Below, piece after piece: positions 45,676 through 53,893 of a stretch of DNA of 64,000 nucleotides. The notes under the pieces were generated by a model that ran no database searches, was not told the DNA's origin, and worked only from the letters and a program-made list of their open reading frames with translations. A program made the translations under genes and the position numbers. Source of the stretch: Naegleria gruberi (Eukaryota); NCBI GenBank assembly GCA_000004985.1, contig GG738852.1. The stretch is one strand, 5' to 3'. How positions within the stretch are numbered: position 1 is the first letter of the stretch; each line of letters starts with the position of its first letter.

Positions 45676-45903
45676 AGTAACACCAAAAGAAACATCTCTA
45701 AAAAGGCAAAGAATTCTAGATTGATCACAAATAAGGAAGAACCTCAACAATAGGATTAATTTACTACATACGATTAAGCTTTGGAAGTGGTTTGTGGAGC
45801 GGTAGAGCCAAATTTGCTGTGGAACACAAATTCCCAAAAAATAAGAAGGAAAATCAGTCTGTGGAATAGATACCCACTATTTTTACAAAAACAGTTTTAA
45901 AAA

Positions 45904-47934
45904 ATGCCGAAAAGTCACGAAGTGTGGAGTGAAGCCCAATTTGTGAATGTTGGACAGGGTATGAATACAGCCACGCACAAATATACAACATCAACTAATG
46001 AAGAATTGTTTCCCATTGCCTGTGGACAATGCAGAAAGCTACATAAGCGTTGGTATGTTATTTTGTGATTGGAATTTGTTGTGATGATAATGAAATAATA
46101 ATAGTGGTAAGTGATACATGTTCGGAGGAACTTTAATATTCTCTCTCTAATAGATAAGAAATTACCATCATGTTCGAAATGCGTTTCAAAGGGGTTGACC
46201 TGTACGGTAGGTTTAATCGATTCATAGTTGTGTTGGGATAATTAGTAAAAGTATCAAGAACCAAAAAAGAAGGGTAGAACAAAGGGATCTAAAAATCATG
46301 TCACTAGTACTGAAGGTAATTCTAAAAATCAACAATCAAATAGTGGAGAAAACACTCCATCCCCCTTGAATCGAGATGATAATTCCAATGAAAATTCTTC
46401 ATCACCACCAAGTGTAGTAGTAGAAAATATTCCTCAATGTCAGTCATCTTCACAAAATAGTAATGTAAAAACACCATACGGAACCAATCTTGTAAATATT
46501 TCAAATAATCTCGTCAATAATGTGATGAATCCGATAACAAGTGTGGAAAATATGTTGAGTCAAACTCCTTCGTTTTTAAGAACAATGAGGATGAACCTTA
46601 TTGATGCTTACTATGAAATAGTATCTTTGGGCTATCCTCTTATTGAGAGATCAGAATTGGAGCGATACATGTTTAGCCAGGATCAACTCAATGATAGAAA
46701 GGAAATTCTTGCATTTGTCTTGTCTATACAGGGATTGTGCCAACAAAGGTTTGGATATTCAGATCTTGCCACTGATAGTATTGAAAAATCTGCTCTAGTT
46801 CTGAAAGACTGTTTTGATGGATACTCTGATTTTTATACAGCTGCAACTTATTCAAATTTTGCATATTATTTTTTAGGTGAAGGCGATACAAAGAAATCAA
46901 GATTCTACAATCATTTTGTAGAATTTTATTTGAAAGAATTGGATGAATTTGCAAATATTTACCAGCAAAACCTTAGATGGATTAAGCTTTTGGTTGACTA
47001 TTTGGGAAATCCTAGATTTCCCTATCTTTCTCCTGTTGATTTAATAGGATTTTTCAACTCTGTAGTAGATAAGGATATGCCTACTGAATGGAAGAATGCA
47101 CTCTTTGATTTTGCTGGTACTAATATTTCAAATTGTGAAGAAAGGTTGGCTATTTTTCATTGCATTACAGATTCAATGCAAAAGATGAGAAGAGGGTCAC
47201 TTATATCATCTATTATTTATGATGTAATTTATGGTGTGTTGAAAACAGGATTGAGTATTTCTATTTATTCTTTTGTGGATTTAATTCATTTTAGGCAAAC
47301 TATATTCGACCTTATTGTCAAGATGTTTAATATTTCAGATAATGAATACTTTTCATTCTCACCACCTATTGTAATACCCTACATGATCGTTTCTGCCAAA
47401 ATATTATTGGAGATGGAAAAGGTTATCGCTACAGGAGAGTTGAATACTAATGGTATCGATTACTACAGTTTACTCTCTAAATGTAATAGAGCACTCAACA
47501 TTTTAGCAAAGAGATACAGGTCCATCTCTTTATCATACTCTGATGTTTTACAGCAATTGAATACTCTTTTATCTAATAGATTCCAAAACTCTGAGACATA
47601 TATAGATTATAGCATTCCAGCAACTATTCCTCAAACTAAATCAAAAATATCTAGACTTGTGGAATTTGATTCAGAAATTAAGGGGTTCTTCCTTCCTTTT
47701 GTTCATCCACTAATTGAGCAAAACATGCTCACCCCTAAACCTCATGTTACATTTGCTACAGAACTTTCACCAAGTCGATCAACTGATCAAGCCAAGCCAC
47801 AAACAACCAATTCTCCCAATGCTTTCGAAAATAACGACTTCATAATGTCATTTTATCAAGATCCTCTGTTAACAGATGAAATAATTGCGTGTCTAGAAGA
47901 AGATGAGCATTATTTAAATGATGAATTTCTCTAA
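45904..47934 (+). CDS. Zn2Cys6 (GAL4-type) binuclear-cluster transcription factor, 4 exons including a putative 2-nt micro-exon. Approximate join(45904..46050, 46105..46106, 46154..46206, 46252..47934).
   Basis: The spliced N-terminus gives 'ACGQCRKLHKRCDKKLPSCSKCVSKGLTCT', a perfect C-x2-C-x6-C-x6-C-x2-C-x6-C cluster with the canonical 'CD...P.C' middle. A basic linker 'YQEPKKKGRTKGSK' follows. All introns have GT..AG ends and are 45–54 nt. See the finding on the micro-exon. Confidence 0.55.
46105..46106 (+). other. Putative 2-nt micro-exon ('TG') between two short introns in the Zn2Cys6 gene.
   Basis: AG|TG|GTAAGT context. Required to convert '...KR' + 'TG' + 'TG' + 'AT AAG' into 'KRCDKK'. 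Confidence 0.4.
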
Positions 47935-47942
47935 TAAAAACT

Positions 47943-49352
47943 TTATTTTTCAAATTTAGAAATAAACCATTTTGCTGATGTATCATGCACATGCTTGGCA
48001 AAATTGATATTCTTTGCTAATGGATGGGACTGGATGGATTCGTGTTCTTGAATAAATTTGAGAAACTTTTGAGTATCCTTTTTGGAAAATACAGCATCTG
48101 GGAAACACTCTTGTAAGAGGGAAGGTAATTTTGTCAATAAATATTCTTCGATTTCCTTTTCATCTTGTTCATTGAACTTGGATTTTTTCTCTTCTTTTTC
48201 TCTCTTGATTTTTTCTTGTTTGGTTTCTCCAAATTCCCAAATTAAGGAAGTGGATAGTTGAGTTTCAGAATCAGTAAATTGTCCATTAAATAATTTGTTT
48301 TCAAAGAGCATTAATTGTTTGATAAATCCATCATTTGGTCGAATAATATCTCTTCTTTCTTTAACATATTCAAGTGCCTGTTTCAAATTATATTTAAAGT
48401 GAGACATTACAAATGCAATCACAAAGCTGGCACTTCTTGATTTTCCAATAACACAATGAACTAGGATTTTCTTCTTTTCTTGGAGAGCAACGTTGATATA
48501 ATCGATACCTTCTTGTAAGAAGGTGAGAATATCTTGTTCCCTTTCATCTTTGAGTGCAATTCTCTTGAATTTAATCTGCTTTGGAACATGTTTACCAAGT
48601 GGCCACTCTTGTGTCACATTGAGGATGTATTCAACACCATTCTTGGTCAATTGAATTTCATCATTGGCATCCATTCCACTTCCCAAGAAGAGAACATCTT
48701 CAATAATGGTTGACATGCCACTCGGAAAGTTTGGTTCTCTCTTCTTTTTTGATAATTTGACAATTAACTCATCTTTGGAAATTTTAATTGATCGTTGCTT
48801 GCTATTTCCTTCACTTTTGTGATAAATTCCATAAAGAGATGAGATGGCGTGAATAAATTTACGATCAACATTTGTAAATTCAGTAGGGAATGTATAATTC
48901 TTTTGATTTTCATCTTCAATAAAGTTGGTAATAATTTTCAAAATTGAACCTGTTTTTTCATTCAAGATATAAATTGGTAATTCCAAACTTTCAGATGAAG
49001 GATGATCCATGTGGAACACTTGACTACTCAAACAAGTTTGTTCAATTTTTAACAAGGTTTCCAATAGAAATTCGGAAATATTTTCATCGGAATCTACTTG
49101 ATTAATGTTTATATTTTTCAAGTAAAAATCAATTATGCTTGGTGATACATCTTGTGTTGCTTGATTTAATTTTGTTGTCAAATCATCAATAAATTGTTTA
49201 ATTTTAACATTTTCCAAAGTGTTGTATGCCAATGGAATTGGTTCTGATAAACAAGTGTGGATATTGAAAGTAACAGTGCCACTCAAGCCCTTGTTACACA
49301 ATTCTACAACTTGATCTAATCCTTCCGATGATGATGAAGATGGTGATGACAT
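47943..49352 (-). CDS. Dual-specificity protein phosphatase (MKP-like).
   Basis: Active-site 'VHCVIGKSRSASFVIAFVM' (HCxxGxxRS). True ATG is at 49352 ('aaaaaaaATGTCATCACC', MSSPSSSS). The stop lies 8 nt from the Zn2Cys6 gene stop on the other strand. Confidence 0.7.
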   Translation of the reverse strand: MSSPSSSSSEGLDQVVELCNKGLSGTVTFNIHTCLSEPIPLAYNTLENVKIKQFIDDLTTKLNQATQDVSPSIIDFYLKNININQVDSDENISEFLLETLLKIEQTCLSSQVFHMDHPSSESLELPIYILNEKTGSILKIITNFIEDENQKNYTFPTEFTNVDRKFIHAISSLYGIYHKSEGNSKQRSIKISKDELIVKLSKKKREPNFPSGMSTIIEDVLFLGSGMDANDEIQLTKNGVEYILNVTQEWPLGKHVPKQIKFKRIALKDEREQDILTFLQEGIDYINVALQEKKKILVHCVIGKSRSASFVIAFVMSHFKYNLKQALEYVKERRDIIRPNDGFIKQLMLFENKLFNGQFTDSETQLSTSLIWEFGETKQEKIKREKEEKKSKFNEQDEKEIEEYLLTKLPSLLQECFPDAVFSKKDTQKFLKFIQEHESIQSHPLAKNINFAKHVHDTSAKWFISKFEK

Positions 49353-49441
49353 TTTTTTTATTGTAAAATTAGAAAACAAACTTTGATGAACTACAACAAA
49401 CGAATACAAAAGTTTAATTGTGTGCAAATTAGAGATGGAAT

Positions 49442-52001
49442 CTATCTTCTCTTTTTGCATTTTTCAATCATACGAAGTGTTGGTAAATCTTGATTGTTTT
49501 GTTGAAGATACTCTCTAAATAATGGAAGTGCTTCTTCACATTCGTCACAGAAAAATCTTGAACATGCTTCATTGTACATTTTCCACTTATTCTTTTGTTC
49601 TGTGGATTGTAATTCATACATCCATTCATCCATTTCAACTGACTTGGATTCACCAACTTCATATAATTTTACCTTTTCTGTTCTTCTAATTTCTATTAAG
49701 GGAGAGGTGGTGCTATCCTCATTCAAAAGATGTGTACTAGCAACATATCTTGTATGGAAATCATTACTAATTTCAACATTAGCATCATTTGTTATTACTA
49801 TTCCCAAGTTAAACTTTTTAGCCTTCTTCATCAATAATTGTAAATTATTGTTGGCACTACCAATAATGGTAAAAGACTTGGAGTTTTTAGTACCAACATT
49901 ACCACAATGAGCATGTTGAGACAAAATACCAAACCTAACCTTGAATTGCTCTAACATCTTTGGAGATTGATTGAAAATGTCCTTTTGTTCCCATTTTGTG
50001 GAGCGTATTTGGTTCATTCTCTCTCTCAGTGTTGCAGCAGTGTGAGCAGCTTTCAATTCGTGGAATTTAATTCGCTCAGTGGAATTCCAACTCAAAAAGA
50101 CACTTTCATTCTCAAAGTTACCAATTTGAGCACCATTTGTAAGAGAAGCCTTTTGTAAAACTTCATAAATATCTGTCAAGAGATGAGTAATTTCATTAAA
50201 ACTCAAATTTTGAACCCACAAGTTAAATCCATCAAGATAGATCACCATGGATGAAACTCTTCTCTTTTCAAAACCAATCTTGAATAGTACGTTTGAAGAA
50301 GCTCCCATACTCTTCTTCATTGAAGATGAATTATTCATGGATGTATCTAAACCTGTGGCACTGTTGAGAGAAGCTCTTCTCTTTGATCCTGAAGGTACTG
50401 CCAAAAAGTTATTGCCAGTGCTATGCTTCATAGTGGAATTATTAATTTCTTCGACAGGTTGATCTTGATTTTCAAGCTGGTGCAACAAGTGAGAAGGAAT
50501 GAAGGCTCTATATTGCTTAATTCGTTGGGTCATCATTAAGAATTGGTCTTGCAATTTAGAAACTTCCTTAAATCTACTTGGTTTGATATTTAAAAAATCA
50601 AGTTCCATTCTCGAGACGCTCTCGAAAAGTTCAATAAGATTTTGGAAAGGTTTTGTTATCTTTACAGAGTAAACAATACCAGCAATAACTCCACCAATAG
50701 TAATAAGCACACTGATACCTAAGGCAATGCAAATTGCAATAATCATTGGTCCAATATATATCCACTGAGGTACAGAGAAGATTATTATCCAATCCATATT
50801 AAATTGAGTACACATTCTATAAGCACTAGTGACACGAGAGGTGAACATGTTTGTGCTCATTGTGTTGCACTTTAAGGTTTCATTGAGAGGATTTGTATAG
50901 CTGGAAACGAGTTCTGCATACATTTTTGTAATTTCTGGATCTGAGTGTTGATCTGGGGTTATTCTACCAGTGATTGAAATTTCAGGTTTACTCGCTTGAT
51001 GTTTACAAGTTGAATTATTGAAATAATGTGTTACAATAAAACTCACTGAACTACTTACTGGCAATAATAAAATTGGTGCTTGATTCAATGATCAAACCTA
51101 TTGATCCAATAACATAATCTGCTGTTGCTGTTTTTAAGAATTTACTCATATTGTCCACACTCATATCCAAGTGGAGAAACCAATCAAATGGTTTGTCACT
51201 TGTGGCTTGAGTATTATTAGGTGCTGTAAATGAATTAACCAAAGCTATCAACACAGCATCAATACCTGGAGATTTATAGGTGAGTGTATATACAGGTTTT
51301 CCAGGATTGGTTTTGATAACTGAATATGAGGATCTTGTATCGTATGGTTTTGTTGTTTTAACAGAGTATGAAAAGTTGGCAGGAATGCATCCTTGATTTA
51401 CATTAAGGGTTACACATGGATATCTGTACAGACCAGTATCATTTTGCAAAGTTTGTGAAACTGGAAGTGTTTTCACCATCAAAATACCTTGGTGGGGATT
51501 TCCTCTTCCGTACAAACTTGCAGCATTAACAAATCCTGCATGGTACTTGATTTCGTTAAAGTAAATGTTTTGCATGTGCTTCATAACCTTTGGTTGGAAA
51601 ACATCAGAGTGATTATTTGACATGGCCACTATCAGTTGGTTCTTCATTGTGTCTGAACCAACAGCAATTTCTCTAAATGTGTTTTCAGTGTATTGTGTAA
51701 TTTTTGAGAATTGAGCCTCTGTGAGTGATCGAGACAAAGTTCGGGTGGTATCAGCAAAAAAGGCTACCCAAATAGCTGTAAGGAATAAAACACATAACAA
51801 TATCACTGTTAAAAAGATGGTTATTGAACAAGATTTGATGGAGATTGTGAACCTTGATTTCAAGACCAATTCATCTTCACTCGTTCCAGTCGATATTATT
51901 TCCATAGAGTTTTCTCCATTCTGACTTCCTGTGGTTTGAACAGGCACTATGGTCGACTTCTTCCAGTTTGGATGTAATTGATCATTTGGAGTAGTTGTCA
52001 T
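49442..52001 (-). CDS. Receptor-type class III adenylate/guanylate cyclase with a large extracellular N-terminal domain, 2 exons. Approximate join(52001..51058, 50994..49442), ±1 nt.
   Basis: TM1 'ITIFLTVILLCVLFLTAIWVAFF', an extracellular region of about 250 aa, TM2 'IIFSVPQWIYIGPMIIAICIALGISVLITIGGVIAGIV', then a cyclase homology domain ('VIYLDGFNLW...GILSQHAHCGNVGTKNSKSFTIIGSANN'). A 63-nt GTAAGT..AAG intron keeps the frame. True ATG is 'MTTTPNDQ' at about 52001. Confidence 0.6.
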
Positions 52002-52811: not shown

Positions 52812-53893
52812 TTAACAAAGAATACACTTCTTTCTTTGTTTCTTATCTTTCCATGTTTTCATATCCTCTATAGAAGCTCCATCTCTTTCATCTATTTCTT
52901 TAATTGCATTAAGAAATGGAAATTGAGACCAATCCTCCATTTTCAGAACATGTTCAAATATTTGATTCATGTTAATTGTTTGTTTAGCACTTGTTTCGAA
53001 TATTGCAGTATTTTTCAACTCAAATTCCTTGATAATTGTTCCAATAAATGAAATTATACTTTCCACACTTTCTATTCTTTCTTTTTCTGGAATATCAATC
53101 TTATTAATGGCAAATAAAACTGGAAAATCATTAATTTCTCTATCTTTAGCTCTAACTAAAATGTTAAATATACGTTTCGTATATTCCATTCTCTTTTCAT
53201 CGAGAGCATAGGTTGTGGAAAATAGATAAATAATTGAGTTGTATCTTTTAAATGCATGTTCAATGAGGGCAGTATATTCATCATGAGTATACAATTTCAA
53301 CAATTCAATCATAGTCCTTTCATTAAACTTTTTTCTGAATGTATCCTCAATGGAACATCCATACCAACAATCATCAACAAAATAACCATGAATTAATTGA
53401 TTGGCGATTGCCGTTTTACCAACACCACCTTAATAATTTAATTTCATCTAATGATCATCATGTACATACCCTCTCCTACTAGAACCATATATCTTTCTTG
53501 TATTTTTGGTGGAATTGTCTCACTTACTGGAATGAAATATTGAGTACGAGCCCATCTCAATAACAAAACTATTCTTCGTAGATTTCTCCTTCCTCTCCAC
53601 TTTTCCAATTCATTACAATTTTTGGCTTCATATTCTAATAAATTAAACCAAAAATTAGATGTGATTGGTTGAAACCATTCCGAAAATTGTTTACTAATGC
53701 TTTCCAATTTTAATACTTCCATAATGAGGGATTGATGTTTAGTAGTTTGAATATTAGAAAAATTAATTTCATCCTTCTGTTGTATGAGGAGCGAAGATAA
53801 AAGAAAAGATCGGATGATTTCTACCAATTCACTGGGAAGAACCAGTAAACTCATTTTTTTAAGTTTTACAATGTAAACTTGTCCGTTCGCCAA
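52812..53893 (-). CDS. Atypical Ras-superfamily small GTPase with an N-terminal F-box-like extension and a polybasic-CAAX C-terminus, 2 exons. Approximate join(53893..53470, 53428..52812).
   Basis: A 41-nt GTATGT..AAG intron fuses '...ERYMVLVGE' to 'GGVGKTAIANQL', giving the P-loop 'GEGGVGKT'. G4 'NKID', G5 'ETSAK', and the C-terminus 'KDKKQRKKCILC*'. Switch II reads 'LYTHDEY' where Ras has 'LDTAGQEEY'. The N-terminus 'MSLLVLPSELVEIIRSFLLSSLL' is F-box-like. Confidence 0.55.

What the first reader, a model, noticed from the sequence alone, without database searches (positions are those of the whole stretch)
46041..46260. Zn2Cys6 zinc cluster is only reconstructed through a 2-nt micro-exon flanked by two ~50-nt introns
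Exon 1 ends '...CGQCRKLHKR' + 'TG' at a GTATGT donor. An acceptor (AATAG) 54 nt downstream is followed by just 'TG' and then immediately a strong GTAAGT donor. The next acceptor (CTAATAG) is followed by 'ATAAGAAA...'.

Splicing both introns yields 'KRCDKKLPSCSKCVSKGLTCT', a perfect GAL4-type C-x2-C-x6-C-x6-C-x2-C-x6-C motif. Any single-intron model gives an in-frame TGA.

This looks like a two-nucleotide micro-exon or a stwintron-like nested arrangement. It is unusual, and it sits in a fungal-hallmark transcription-factor domain within a flagellate-type genome.
Basis: seen in the sequence. Interest (0 to 1): 0.6.

Follow-up and report, generated by a model that had tools for sequence, protein, structure and literature searches.

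The report
Two-nucleotide exon in Naegleria gene
A Naegleria gruberi transcription-factor gene can only encode its zinc-binding DNA-binding domain if two ordinary ~50-base introns, separated by just two bases (TG), are both spliced out; relatives have only one of these introns, and no RNA data could be checked here.

Summary
The window is Naegleria gruberi. The gene is NAEGRDRAFT_63966 (45904-47934, + strand), a Zn2Cys6 protein. Exon 1 ends ...CGT TG at 46052. Intron 1 is 46053-46104 (52 nt, GTATGT..TAG). The bases TG (46105-46106) form an exon. Intron 2 is 46107-46153 (47 nt, GTAAGT..TAG).

I enumerated every single or double GT/GC..AG excision. Only this pair gives ..HKRCDKKLPSC.., the sequence found in the orthologues and the best Pfam match (43 bits).

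N. lovaniensis, N. fowleri and an uncultured relative have a single intron exactly at the intron-2 position, after TGTG or TGCG. Intron 1 is seen only in N. gruberi, 2 nt upstream of the shared intron. Gain in N. gruberi and loss in the sister clade are equally parsimonious.

This is not a stwintron.

Exons of 1-2 nt are documented in plants and in Coprinopsis. This is a new member of a known kind. It rests on comparative evidence only; no transcript evidence was available.

The parts
45904..46052 (+). Exon 1. Runs from the ATG to ...CGT TG. Encodes MPKSHEVW...IACGQCRKLHKR plus the first two bases of the Cys3 codon.
   Evidence: An in-frame stop lies just upstream of the ATG. The ORF and the start are collinear with the orthologues.
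46053..46104 (+). Intron 1. 52 nt, GTATGT...AATAG, phase 2 inside the Cys3 codon (TG|T). Seen only in N. gruberi among the four orthologues compared.
   Evidence: Its only AG dinucleotide is the terminal one. It has no other copy in the window.
46085..46091 (+). Candidate branch-point motif of intron 1 (TGATAAT). The branch A would lie about 14 nt from the 3' splice site.
   Evidence: Motif position. It resembles the TTAAT/CTAAC-like motifs near the 3' ends of other short introns in the window. This is an inference and was not tested.
46105..46106 (+). 2-nt internal exon, TG. Supplies the third base of the Cys3 codon (TGT) and the first base of the Asp codon (GAT).
   Evidence: Together with the TG at the end of exon 1, it reconstitutes the TGTG/TGCG that directly precedes the single intron in the orthologues.
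46107..46153 (+). Intron 2. 47 nt, GTAAGT...CTAATAG, phase 1 in the Asp codon (G|AT). Its position is shared with N. lovaniensis, N. fowleri and an uncultured relative.
46131..46148 (+). Candidate branch-point motif CTTTAAT (46131-46137), followed by a pyrimidine run ATTCTCTCTCT (46138-46148) in intron 2.
   Evidence: GAACTTTAA is also present near the 3' end of the N. fowleri-type intron. This is an inference.
46154..46206 (+). Exon 3 (53 nt). Contains AT of the Asp codon plus KKLPSCSKCVSKGLTCT, which carries Cys4 to Cys6.
   Evidence: tblastx identity to the orthologues is 75-84%.
46207..46251 (+). Intron 3. 45 nt, GTAGGT...AAAAG, phase 0. Its position is conserved in all four orthologues.
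46252..47934 (+). Exon 4, including the stop codon. Contains a basic linker YQEPKKKGRTKG, a low-complexity region and a conserved helical C-terminal domain of about 340 aa.
   Evidence: The orthologues are collinear to the end. The reference model's extra intron at about 47468-47580 is not supported.

Best explanation
**What it is.** The locus is the N-terminal part of N. gruberi gene NAEGRDRAFT_63966, a Zn2Cys6 (GAL4-type) DNA-binding protein of about 628 aa. Three short U2-type GT-AG introns (52, 47 and 45 nt) interrupt the 30 codons of the zinc cluster. Introns 1 and 2 are separated by only the dinucleotide TG. That TG is a bona fide 2-nt internal exon. Without it, the third zinc-ligand cysteine and the reading frame are lost.

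**Evolution.**
- Shown: intron 2 occupies a position shared with other Naegleria species, and intron 1 is seen only in N. gruberi, 2 nt upstream.
- Inferred: the micro-exon arose from an intron presence/absence change next to an older intron. My estimate is about 60% a gain in the N. gruberi lineage and about 30% a loss in the sister lineage.

**Mechanism (inferred).**
- The AG of intron 1 lies within the -3..+6 footprint of the intron-2 donor, so the two introns cannot be engaged at once.
- They are therefore removed one after the other by intron definition.
- Either order leaves a valid substrate for the second reaction: CGTTGTG|GTAAGT after intron 1 is removed, or AATAG|TGATAAG after intron 2 is removed.
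- Joining the intron-1 donor directly to the intron-2 acceptor skips the TG and gives CGT TGA. That transcript would be a dead end.
For: - **Sequence and frame:**
- **Exhaustive enumeration:** among all one- and two-step GT/GC..AG excisions, only 46053-46104 plus 46107-46153 gives RCDKKLPSC.
- **Pfam score:** this product has the highest Zn_clus score, 43.3 bits against 39.0, 27.3 and 26.8 for the alternatives.
- **Orthologue proteins:** all read KRCDKK or KKCDKK.
- **Orthologue DNA:** each has ...TGT G|GTATGT...TGC G|GTAAGT or ...TGT G|GTAGGT, with one intron ending AG|ATAAG or AG|ACAAA. This is exactly the intron-2 position.
- **Intron 3:** its position is conserved in all four.
- **Signals and lengths are typical for this genome:** other candidate introns in the window are 41-95 nt with GTAAGT or GTATGT donors and NAG acceptors.
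- **Intron 1 acceptor:** intron 1 contains a single AG, its terminal one, so any branch point inside it leads to that acceptor.
- **Chance:** an internal AG-YG-GTRWGT arises at a frequency of 4.4e-4 in shuffles.
- **Gene integrity:** the gene is otherwise intact, with a 560-codon open exon 4 about 52% identical to the orthologues over 434 columns.
- **Reference annotation:** the deposited protein XP_002680765.1 carries the same junction.
- **Precedent:** exons of 1-2 nt with transcript support exist in plants and in Coprinopsis.
Against: - No transcript evidence could be obtained. The spliced junction 24-mer is absent from the metagenome collection. No N. gruberi cDNA-derived protein is in the protein collection.
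- The reference model is demonstrably wrong at its 3' end, so it is probably ab initio. It is not independent proof of the junction.
- A stop-free single-intron alternative exists (46053-46127).
- The direction of the change (gain or loss) is unresolved. With paralogues as outgroup, N. gruberi branches first in 282 of 300 NJ bootstraps.
- The origin of intron 1 is unknown. It shows no similarity to intron 2 or to flanking sequence, and has no other copy in the window.
Confidence: 0.82

Rival explanations
1. Single 75-nt intron. The GTATGT donor at 46053 is joined to the AG at 46126-46127, and the rest of 'intron 2' is translated (..HKRWNFNILSLIDKKLPSC..). The protein would have a five-cysteine, degenerate zinc cluster.
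For: It is stop-free and in frame. It still passes the Pfam Zn_clus threshold at 26.8 bits.
Against: - It loses the invariant third cysteine and inserts 8 residues that none of the orthologues has.
- It abandons the intron position conserved in three other Naegleria, even though a perfect GTAAGT sits there.
- Its acceptor context (TTCGGAG|G) has no pyrimidine run.
- The first AG downstream of any branch point within 46053-46104 is the one at 46103-46104.
- It scores 16.5 bits lower than the micro-exon model.
Confidence: 0.05
2. The micro-exon is skipped as the main outcome (46053 joined to 46153), giving CGT TGA and a 49-aa peptide. The gene would then be a recent pseudogene, or would be kept low by unproductive splicing.
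For: The outer donor and acceptor form a good 101-nt intron, with GTATGT, CTTTAAT, a pyrimidine run and TAG. Very short exons are generally prone to skipping (introduction of PMC4674806).
Against: - 628 codons are free of stops, and exon 4 is conserved along its whole length.
- The internal AG-TG-GTAAGT is too specific to be accidental (frequency 4.4e-4).
- In short-intron organisms, exons of 1-2 nt are spliced productively.
Confidence: 0.07
3. Origin by frameshift rescue. The ancestral single intron was about 100 nt and started at the present GTATGT. A TG was lost by slippage from the exonic TGTG. Function was then rescued by using a pre-existing internal AG|TG|GTAAGT, which split one intron into two.
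For: - In N. gruberi, GTATGT follows CGTTG, whereas in N. lovaniensis GTATGT follows CGTTGTG. The N. lovaniensis intron is 95 nt, similar to 52+2+47 = 101 nt.
- The intron-1 core aligns with the N. fowleri-type intron at an empirical p of about 0.004.
Against: - It needs two events plus a rare pre-existing motif (frequency 4.4e-4).
- The similarity signal is not trustworthy. Intron 1 matches the non-homologous intron 3 of the same species at p of about 0.018, while truly orthologous intron-3 pairs show no signal (p 0.29-0.9).
- The TG plus GTAAGTG.T.CATG context of intron 2 resembles the exon-intron junctions of N. fowleri and the uncultured relative.
Confidence: 0.1
4. Assembly or sequencing error. 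Two bases (TG) are missing from the TGTG run at 46051-46052. The real gene would have one ordinary 101-nt intron, and the internal AG-TG-GTAAGT would be a coincidence.
For: Dinucleotide runs are error-prone. There is only one N. gruberi assembly, and no second N. gruberi sequence was found.
Against: It requires both a 2-nt error and an independent coincidence of frequency 4.4e-4. That coincidence would also have to supply exactly the two missing bases next to a perfect GTAAGT at the conserved intron position.
Confidence: 0.02
5. An 8-nt exon instead of a 2-nt exon. Intron 46053-46111, exon TGATACAT (46112-46119), intron 46120-46153. This gives ..KRCDTYKKLPSC.. with six cysteines and x8 spacing.
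For: It is stop-free and keeps six cysteines. Pfam scores it at 39.0 bits.
Against: - Its second donor would be GTTCGG, unlike any candidate donor seen in the window.
- It ignores the perfect GTAAGT at 46107.
- It adds TY, which is absent from all orthologues.
- It scores lower than the 2-nt model.
Confidence: 0.02

Closest known systems
Ultra-short (1-3 nt) internal exons in short-intron fungi: Coprinopsis cinerea long-read annotation (PMC12230235)
   Same: That annotation reports 57 exons of 2 nt, 13 of 1 nt and 27 of 3 nt. They are flanked by ordinary short introns. Omitting them usually creates a premature stop. This is the same architecture and the same consequence as here.
   Different: It is a different eukaryotic supergroup (Basidiomycota versus Heterolobosea). 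The Coprinopsis cases have transcript support, and this one does not. Here a between-species comparison shows that one flanking intron is lineage-restricted.
1-nt constitutive exons of plant APC11 and VPS55 (PMC4674806, PMC8831610)
   Same: The internal exon is far too small for exon definition. It is needed for the frame and is often missed or mis-annotated. The flanking introns are thought to be removed sequentially, with a detained, post-transcriptionally spliced intron.
   Different: The plant micro-exons are ancient and conserved across land plants. The N. gruberi one differs among congeneric species. The plant flanking introns are longer.
Spliceosomal twin introns (stwintrons) of fungi (PMC9024468, PMC7138796, PMC5587772)
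   Same: Two U2 introns are packed together, so consecutive splicing reactions are needed. Both are discussed as a route to new introns through the appearance or duplication of splice sites at an existing intron.
   Different: In a stwintron, the internal intron interrupts a donor, branch or acceptor element of the external intron, and nothing between them is retained. Here both introns are complete and 2 nt are kept in the mRNA. The nested reading gives a product lacking Cys3.
Recursive splice sites / zero-length exons (Drosophila Ubx ratchet points; from my own knowledge, not checked here)
   Same: A 3' splice site is juxtaposed to a regenerated GTAAGT 5' splice site. Removal is stepwise.
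   Different: Recursive sites retain 0 nt and subdivide very long introns. Here 2 coding nt are retained and both introns are about 50 nt.
Fungal Zn2Cys6 (GAL4/PUT3/LAC9-type) DNA-binding domains, Pfam PF00172
   Same: The six-cysteine spacing is the same. The Pfam match is above threshold. The best PDB sequence matches are PUT3, LAC9, HAP1, GAL4 and Cep3.
   Different: The host is a heterolobosean amoeboflagellate. The C-terminal domain has no Pfam match to the fungal middle-homology region. The only structural hint is a weak, non-significant hit to a CBF3-complex chain.

Membership tests
U2-type GT-AG spliceosomal intron (applied to intron 1, 46053-46104) | Consensus GT donor and AG acceptor at the exact boundaries | tested here: met
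   GTATGT...AATAG. The same donor hexamer is used by other candidate introns in the window.
U2-type GT-AG spliceosomal intron (applied to intron 1, 46053-46104) | Length within the organism's intron range, and a branch-point-like motif upstream of the first AG | tested here: met
   It is 52 nt, against 41-95 nt for other short candidate introns. TGATAAT lies 14 nt from the acceptor. The only AG in the intron is the terminal one. The branch point itself is inferred.
U2-type GT-AG spliceosomal intron (applied to intron 1, 46053-46104) | Removal restores the reading frame and a conserved protein sequence | tested here: met
   The orthologues read KRCDKK.
U2-type GT-AG spliceosomal intron (applied to intron 1, 46053-46104) | Absence from the mature mRNA | not testable with these tools
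   No N. gruberi transcript data were reachable. Public RNA-seq PRJEB23822 exists.
Ultra-short internal micro-exon (3 nt or less) | Bases flanked directly by a functional acceptor AG and a donor GT, and required for the frame | tested here: met
   AATAG|TG|GTAAGT. Skipping gives TGA. The chance frequency is 4.4e-4.
Ultra-short internal micro-exon (3 nt or less) | Inclusion observed in cDNA or RNA-seq | not testable with these tools
   
Stwintron (spliceosomal twin intron) | The internal intron interrupts a donor, branch-point or acceptor element of the external intron, and no retained bases lie between them | tested here: not met
   Both introns have complete signals and 2 nt are retained. The formal [D1,2] reading (46053-46104, then G46052+T46105...46153) yields ..KRYKK.. 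at 27.3 bits and lacks Cys3.
Recursive splice site (zero-length exon) | AG immediately abutting GTAAGT, with nothing retained | tested here: not met
   TG lies between the AG and GTAAGT and is needed in the mRNA.
Introner-like / transposon-derived intron family | Multiple near-identical copies serving as introns in other genes; terminal repeats or target-site duplications | tested here: inconclusive
   There is no second copy within the 64-kb window at up to 3 mismatches. Boundary ambiguity is only 1 nt (G), and no target-site duplication is seen. The rest of the N. gruberi genome was not available.
Intron created by tandem duplication of an AGGT-containing segment, or by copying the neighbouring intron | Sequence similarity between the new intron and the flanking exon or intron | tested here: not met
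   Intron 1 against intron 2 gives p of about 0.7-0.97. Intron 1 against the local sequence gives p of about 0.5. An old event with eroded similarity cannot be excluded.
Zn2Cys6 binuclear cluster domain (PF00172) | C-x2-C-x6-C-x5-12-C-x2-C-x6-8-C, with a Pfam score above the gathering threshold | tested here: met
   40.2-43.3 bits against a cut-off of 21, covering profile positions 2-38 of 39. PDB sequence matches are PUT3, LAC9, HAP1 and GAL4.
Fungal zinc-cluster transcription-factor architecture (Zn_clus plus middle-homology region, PF04082) | A middle-homology (Fungal_trans) domain downstream of the cluster | tested here: inconclusive
   No Pfam hit in any of the six family members. The low-confidence AF2 model (pLDDT 53) is all-helical. 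Its top PDB hit is 6gys_J of the CBF3 complex, at E 0.07 and TM 0.30.

The most novel reading that the evidence does not exclude
Intron 1 is a recent, N. gruberi-lineage intron gain that landed 2 nt upstream of an older intron. It may be mechanistically linked to that intron's splice site, for example by reverse splicing or by repair at a spliceosome-engaged site. The result is one of the shortest internal exons known outside plants and fungi, with obligatorily ordered, recursive-like splicing. A rarer variant is that a 2-nt frameshift deletion was rescued by splitting one intron into two.
Probability: 0.35. Interest if true: 0.55.

Novelty: new member of a known kind. Interest (0 to 1): 0.4.

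Why it matters
- **Gene prediction.** It is a clean, checkable example showing that gene prediction in short-intron protists must allow exons of 1-3 nt. Otherwise a conserved DNA-binding domain is read as broken.
- **Splicing.** It gives a natural substrate for asking how an intron-definition spliceosome handles a 3' and a 5' splice site only 2 nt apart. Open questions are the order of removal, the skipping rate and coupling to NMD. The organism has public RNA-seq data.
- **Intron evolution.** Congeneric species differ by exactly one intron at this spot, so it is a well-delimited case of intron gain or loss adjacent to an existing intron. Sequencing a few more Naegleria or Willaertia genomes would polarise it.
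- **What it does not do.** It does not change what is known about splicing in principle. Exons of 1-2 nt are already documented in plants and in Coprinopsis.

Tried and rejected
- **Stwintron or nested reading.** I enumerated all sequential GT/GC..AG excisions. The nested solutions lack Cys3. Rejected.
- **Intron 1 as a copy of intron 2, or of flanking exon or intron sequence** (tandem duplication or reverse splicing). No similarity beyond the splice-site consensus.
- **Intron 1 plus intron 2 homologous to the single intron of relatives.**
  - The intron-1 core against the N. fowleri-type intron gave an empirical p of about 0.004.
  - The control against a non-homologous intron gave 0.018.
  - True orthologous intron-3 pairs gave no signal.
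  - I treat the result as compositional, so intron sequence is uninformative at this divergence.
- **Introner-like repeat.** No second copy in the window. A genome-wide check was not possible.
- **More relatives, to polarise gain against loss.** A profile search of the protein collection returned the same six proteins. The JGI metagenome scan found none.
- **Transcript evidence.** The spliced-junction 24-mer is absent from metagenome contigs. The N. gruberi models are not on record in the contig collection.
- **RNA structure bridging the two introns.** Folding 46040-46170 gave a z-score of +1.1, so nothing was found.
- **Other micro-exons in the window.** The pattern scan returned this site plus hits at the level of the null sequences. 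The 1-nt candidate at 53429-53527(-) is explained by one ordinary 41-nt intron.
- **+1 frameshifting on the skipped mRNA.** This would give KRDKK without Cys3. Rejected by inspection.
- **Literature.** No paper mentions this gene or its accession numbers. No phrase-level hits for a spliceosomal '2-nt exon' turned up beyond the Coprinopsis annotation.
Full report
**1. Observation.**
- The + strand ORF starts at ATG 45904 and runs to ...CAT AAG CGT TG at 46052.
- GTATGT begins at 46053 and AATAG ends at 46104, so intron 1 is 52 nt.
- TG occupies 46105-46106.
- GTAAGT begins at 46107 and CTAATAG ends at 46153, so intron 2 is 47 nt.
- ATAAGAAA... follows from 46154.
- A third intron (46207-46251, 45 nt, GTAGGT..AAAAG) follows the sixth cysteine.
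- A single 1,683-nt exon then runs to the stop at 47934.

Splicing all three introns gives a 628-aa protein with CGQCRKLHKRCDKKLPSCSKCVSKGLTC. Pfam Zn_clus matches at E 3.8e-10 and covers profile positions 2-38 of 39. Removing 46053-46153 as one intron gives CGT TGA. Retaining either intron gives stops.

**2. Identity.** The window is Naegleria gruberi.
- The protein is 100% identical over residues 1-473 to EFC48021.1 / XP_002680765.1 (NAEGRDRAFT_63966, UniProt D2V503).
- That deposited model already reads ...HKRCDKKL..., so the reference annotation implicitly contains the 2-nt exon.
- Its 3' end uses an extra intron (about 47468-47580) that the orthologues contradict. The model is therefore probably ab initio and is not independent evidence.
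- No paper mentions the gene.

**3. Is the micro-exon model unique?** I enumerated every single and every sequential double GT/GC..AG excision of at least 20 nt between the ATG and the end of exon 3.
- Only 46053-46104 plus 46107-46153, in either order, yields RCDKKLPSC.
46053-46127 is stop-free (..KRWNFNILSLIDKK..), but it deletes Cys3.
- An 8-nt-exon variant with a GTTCGG donor gives RCDTYKK.
- A nested [D1,2]-type reading gives RYKK.

Pfam scores are 43.3 bits for the micro-exon model, against 26.8, 39.0 and 27.3 bits for these three alternatives. In 200,000 composition-matched shuffles of the 101-nt interval, a suitably placed AG-[T/C]G-GTRWGT occurred at a frequency of 4.4e-4.

**4. Comparative evidence.** The family consists of six proteins, all from Naegleria.
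- I fetched DNA for three orthologues: N. lovaniensis (L001), a Logan contig (L002) and an uncultured relative from an ENA metagenome (L003). The protein encoded by L002 clusters at 90% or more with annotated N. fowleri proteins, and its zinc-cluster exons encode the N. fowleri sequence.
- All three have one intron at this spot:
  - CGT TGT G|GTATGT...GATAG|AT AAG (95 nt)
  - CGC TGC G|GTAAGT...TGCAG|AT AAG (61 nt)
  - AAG TGT G|GTAGGT...CTTAG|AC AAA (40 nt)
- This is exactly the position of N. gruberi intron 2 (phase 1, G|AT of the Asp codon).
- The exonic TGTG/TGCG in front of it equals the N. gruberi exon-1 TG plus the micro-exon TG.
- Intron 3 is positionally conserved in all four.
- Intron 1 (phase 2, TG|T of Cys3) is seen only in N. 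gruberi.
- The N. fowleri paralogue has a single intron 8 nt further downstream, after CDKK, and none at these positions.
- The genes are collinear from the start codon to the C-terminus.
- N. gruberi is about 52% identical to N. lovaniensis and N. fowleri, and 48% to the uncultured relative, over 434 shared columns.

**5. Direction and origin.**
- An NJ tree rooted with the paralogues puts N. gruberi as the first branch in 282 of 300 bootstraps. Gain of intron 1 in the N. gruberi line and precise loss in the sister line are therefore equally parsimonious. Long-branch attraction to the outgroup cannot be excluded.
- Intron 1 shows no similarity to intron 2 or to flanking sequence. It has no second copy in the window.
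- One alignment was initially suggestive: the intron-1 core against the N. fowleri-type intron gave an empirical p of about 0.004. Intron 1 also matches a non-homologous intron at p of about 0.018, and genuinely orthologous intron-3 pairs show nothing. I treat the signal as compositional.
- The origin of intron 1 is therefore unknown. Candidates include de novo insertion, an old duplication, or a 2-nt deletion rescued by splitting a ~100-nt intron.

**6. Are these normal introns for this genome?**
- An ORF-joining heuristic found about a dozen short candidate introns in the window. They are 41-95 nt, with GTAAGT/GTATGT/GTAGGT donors, NAG acceptors, and A/T-rich 3' regions often containing TTAAT or CTAAC.
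- Introns 1-3 fit this pattern.
- Intron 1 contains one AG only, its last two bases. Intron 2 has CTTTAAT followed by a CT-rich run before TAG.
- The region has no unusual RNA structure (z = +1.1).
- A pattern scan found no other convincing micro-exon in the window.

**7. Mechanism (inference from established spliceosome biology).**
- The AG of intron 1 (46103-46104) lies within the -3..+6 region of the intron-2 donor. The two sites therefore cannot be occupied at the same time, and exon definition is impossible on 2 nt.
- With ~50-nt introns, recognition should be by intron definition, and the two introns should be removed consecutively.
- Either order leaves a valid second substrate: ...CGTTGTG|GTAAGT, or ...AATAG|TGATAAG.
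- The -3..-1 context of the intron-2 donor is GTG both before and after intron 1 is removed.
- Pairing the outer sites skips the TG and creates TGA at the junction. That product should be non-functional and probably NMD-sensitive.
- The plant micro-exon paper proposes that a spliceosome cannot assemble on both flanking introns at once, so one intron is detained and spliced later.

**8. What is known.**
- A constitutive 1-nt exon is validated in Arabidopsis APC11. Conserved 1-nt exons occur in APC11 and VPS55 across land plants (PMC4674806, PMC8831610).
- The long-read annotation of Coprinopsis cinerea reports 13 exons of 1 nt, 57 of 2 nt and 27 of 3 nt (PMC12230235).
- Stwintrons are nested introns in which one intron interrupts a splice signal of the other. 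That definition is not met here.
- Zn2Cys6 domains in Naegleria are already labelled as such in the databases.
- The C-terminal domain has no Pfam match. A low-confidence AF2 model is all-helical. Its top PDB hit is a chain of the yeast CBF3 complex, which is non-significant.

**9. Limits.**
- No RNA evidence was reachable.
- Public N. gruberi RNA-seq exists (PRJEB23822, PMC6142364). It would settle both the junction and the order of removal.

**10. Verdict.**
- The 2-nt exon is the best-supported reading (about 0.8). It is already implicit in the reference annotation.
- New here are the comparative result that only intron 2 is shared with other Naegleria, and the explicit exclusion of alternative splice models.
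- It is a new member of a known kind, of moderate interest.

Noticed in passing
window 47468-47580 (+), within exon 4: The reference protein XP_002680765.1 (481 aa) matches my model up to residue 473. It then uses an extra predicted intron that shifts to a short tail, NSKTLRHI. The N. lovaniensis, N. fowleri-type and ENA orthologues stay collinear with the unspliced ORF to 47934, so the gene is more likely 628 aa.
   Followed up: partly
window 45790-45812; L003 1235-1305 and 1350-1395; L001 2797-2867: A tRNA-Gly(GCC) gene lies roughly 130-200 nt upstream of the orthologous start codon in N. lovaniensis and in the uncultured relative. None is in the N. gruberi window. L003 also carries a degenerate tRNA-Lys(CUU)-like fragment. 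Its 20-mer GTTTGTGGAG(T)CGGTAGAGC recurs about 100 nt upstream of the N. gruberi ATG. This may be a decayed tRNA gene or a conserved promoter element.
   Followed up: partly
window 46570-47600 (+), C-terminal domain of the protein: A domain of about 340 aa is conserved in all six Naegleria family members and has no Pfam match. A low-confidence AlphaFold model (pLDDT 53) is all-helical. Its best PDB Foldseek hit is a 554-residue chain of the yeast CBF3-CEN3 complex (6gys_J, E 0.07, TM 0.30). That chain may be the zinc-cluster protein Cep3. The hit is not significant.
   Followed up: partly
L002 (Logan SRR29240419) and N. fowleri proteins P0007-P0009: One N. fowleri annotation splits the orthologue into two gene models (FDP41_008730 of 362 aa and FDP41_008731 of 269 aa). 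Another annotation gives a 661-aa protein (CAG4713173.1).
   Followed up: no
window 53429-53469 (-): A Ras-like GTPase gene has a 41-nt intron (GTATGT..TTAAG) inside the P-loop codons, GEG|GVGKT. An upstream in-frame GTAAGT mimics a second donor, which produced a false 1-nt micro-exon candidate in my scan.
   Followed up: yes
window 47934-47943: The genome is very compact here. The convergent ORF on the minus strand (47943-49460) ends 9 nt from this gene's stop codon, leaving almost no 3' UTR space that is not shared.
   Followed up: no
window 46058-46101 versus L002 334-394: The core of intron 1 aligns with the N. fowleri-type intron better than 99.5% of N. gruberi windows do (empirical p of about 0.004). 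Controls suggest T/G-rich composition rather than homology. The signal is not fully explained.
   Followed up: yes
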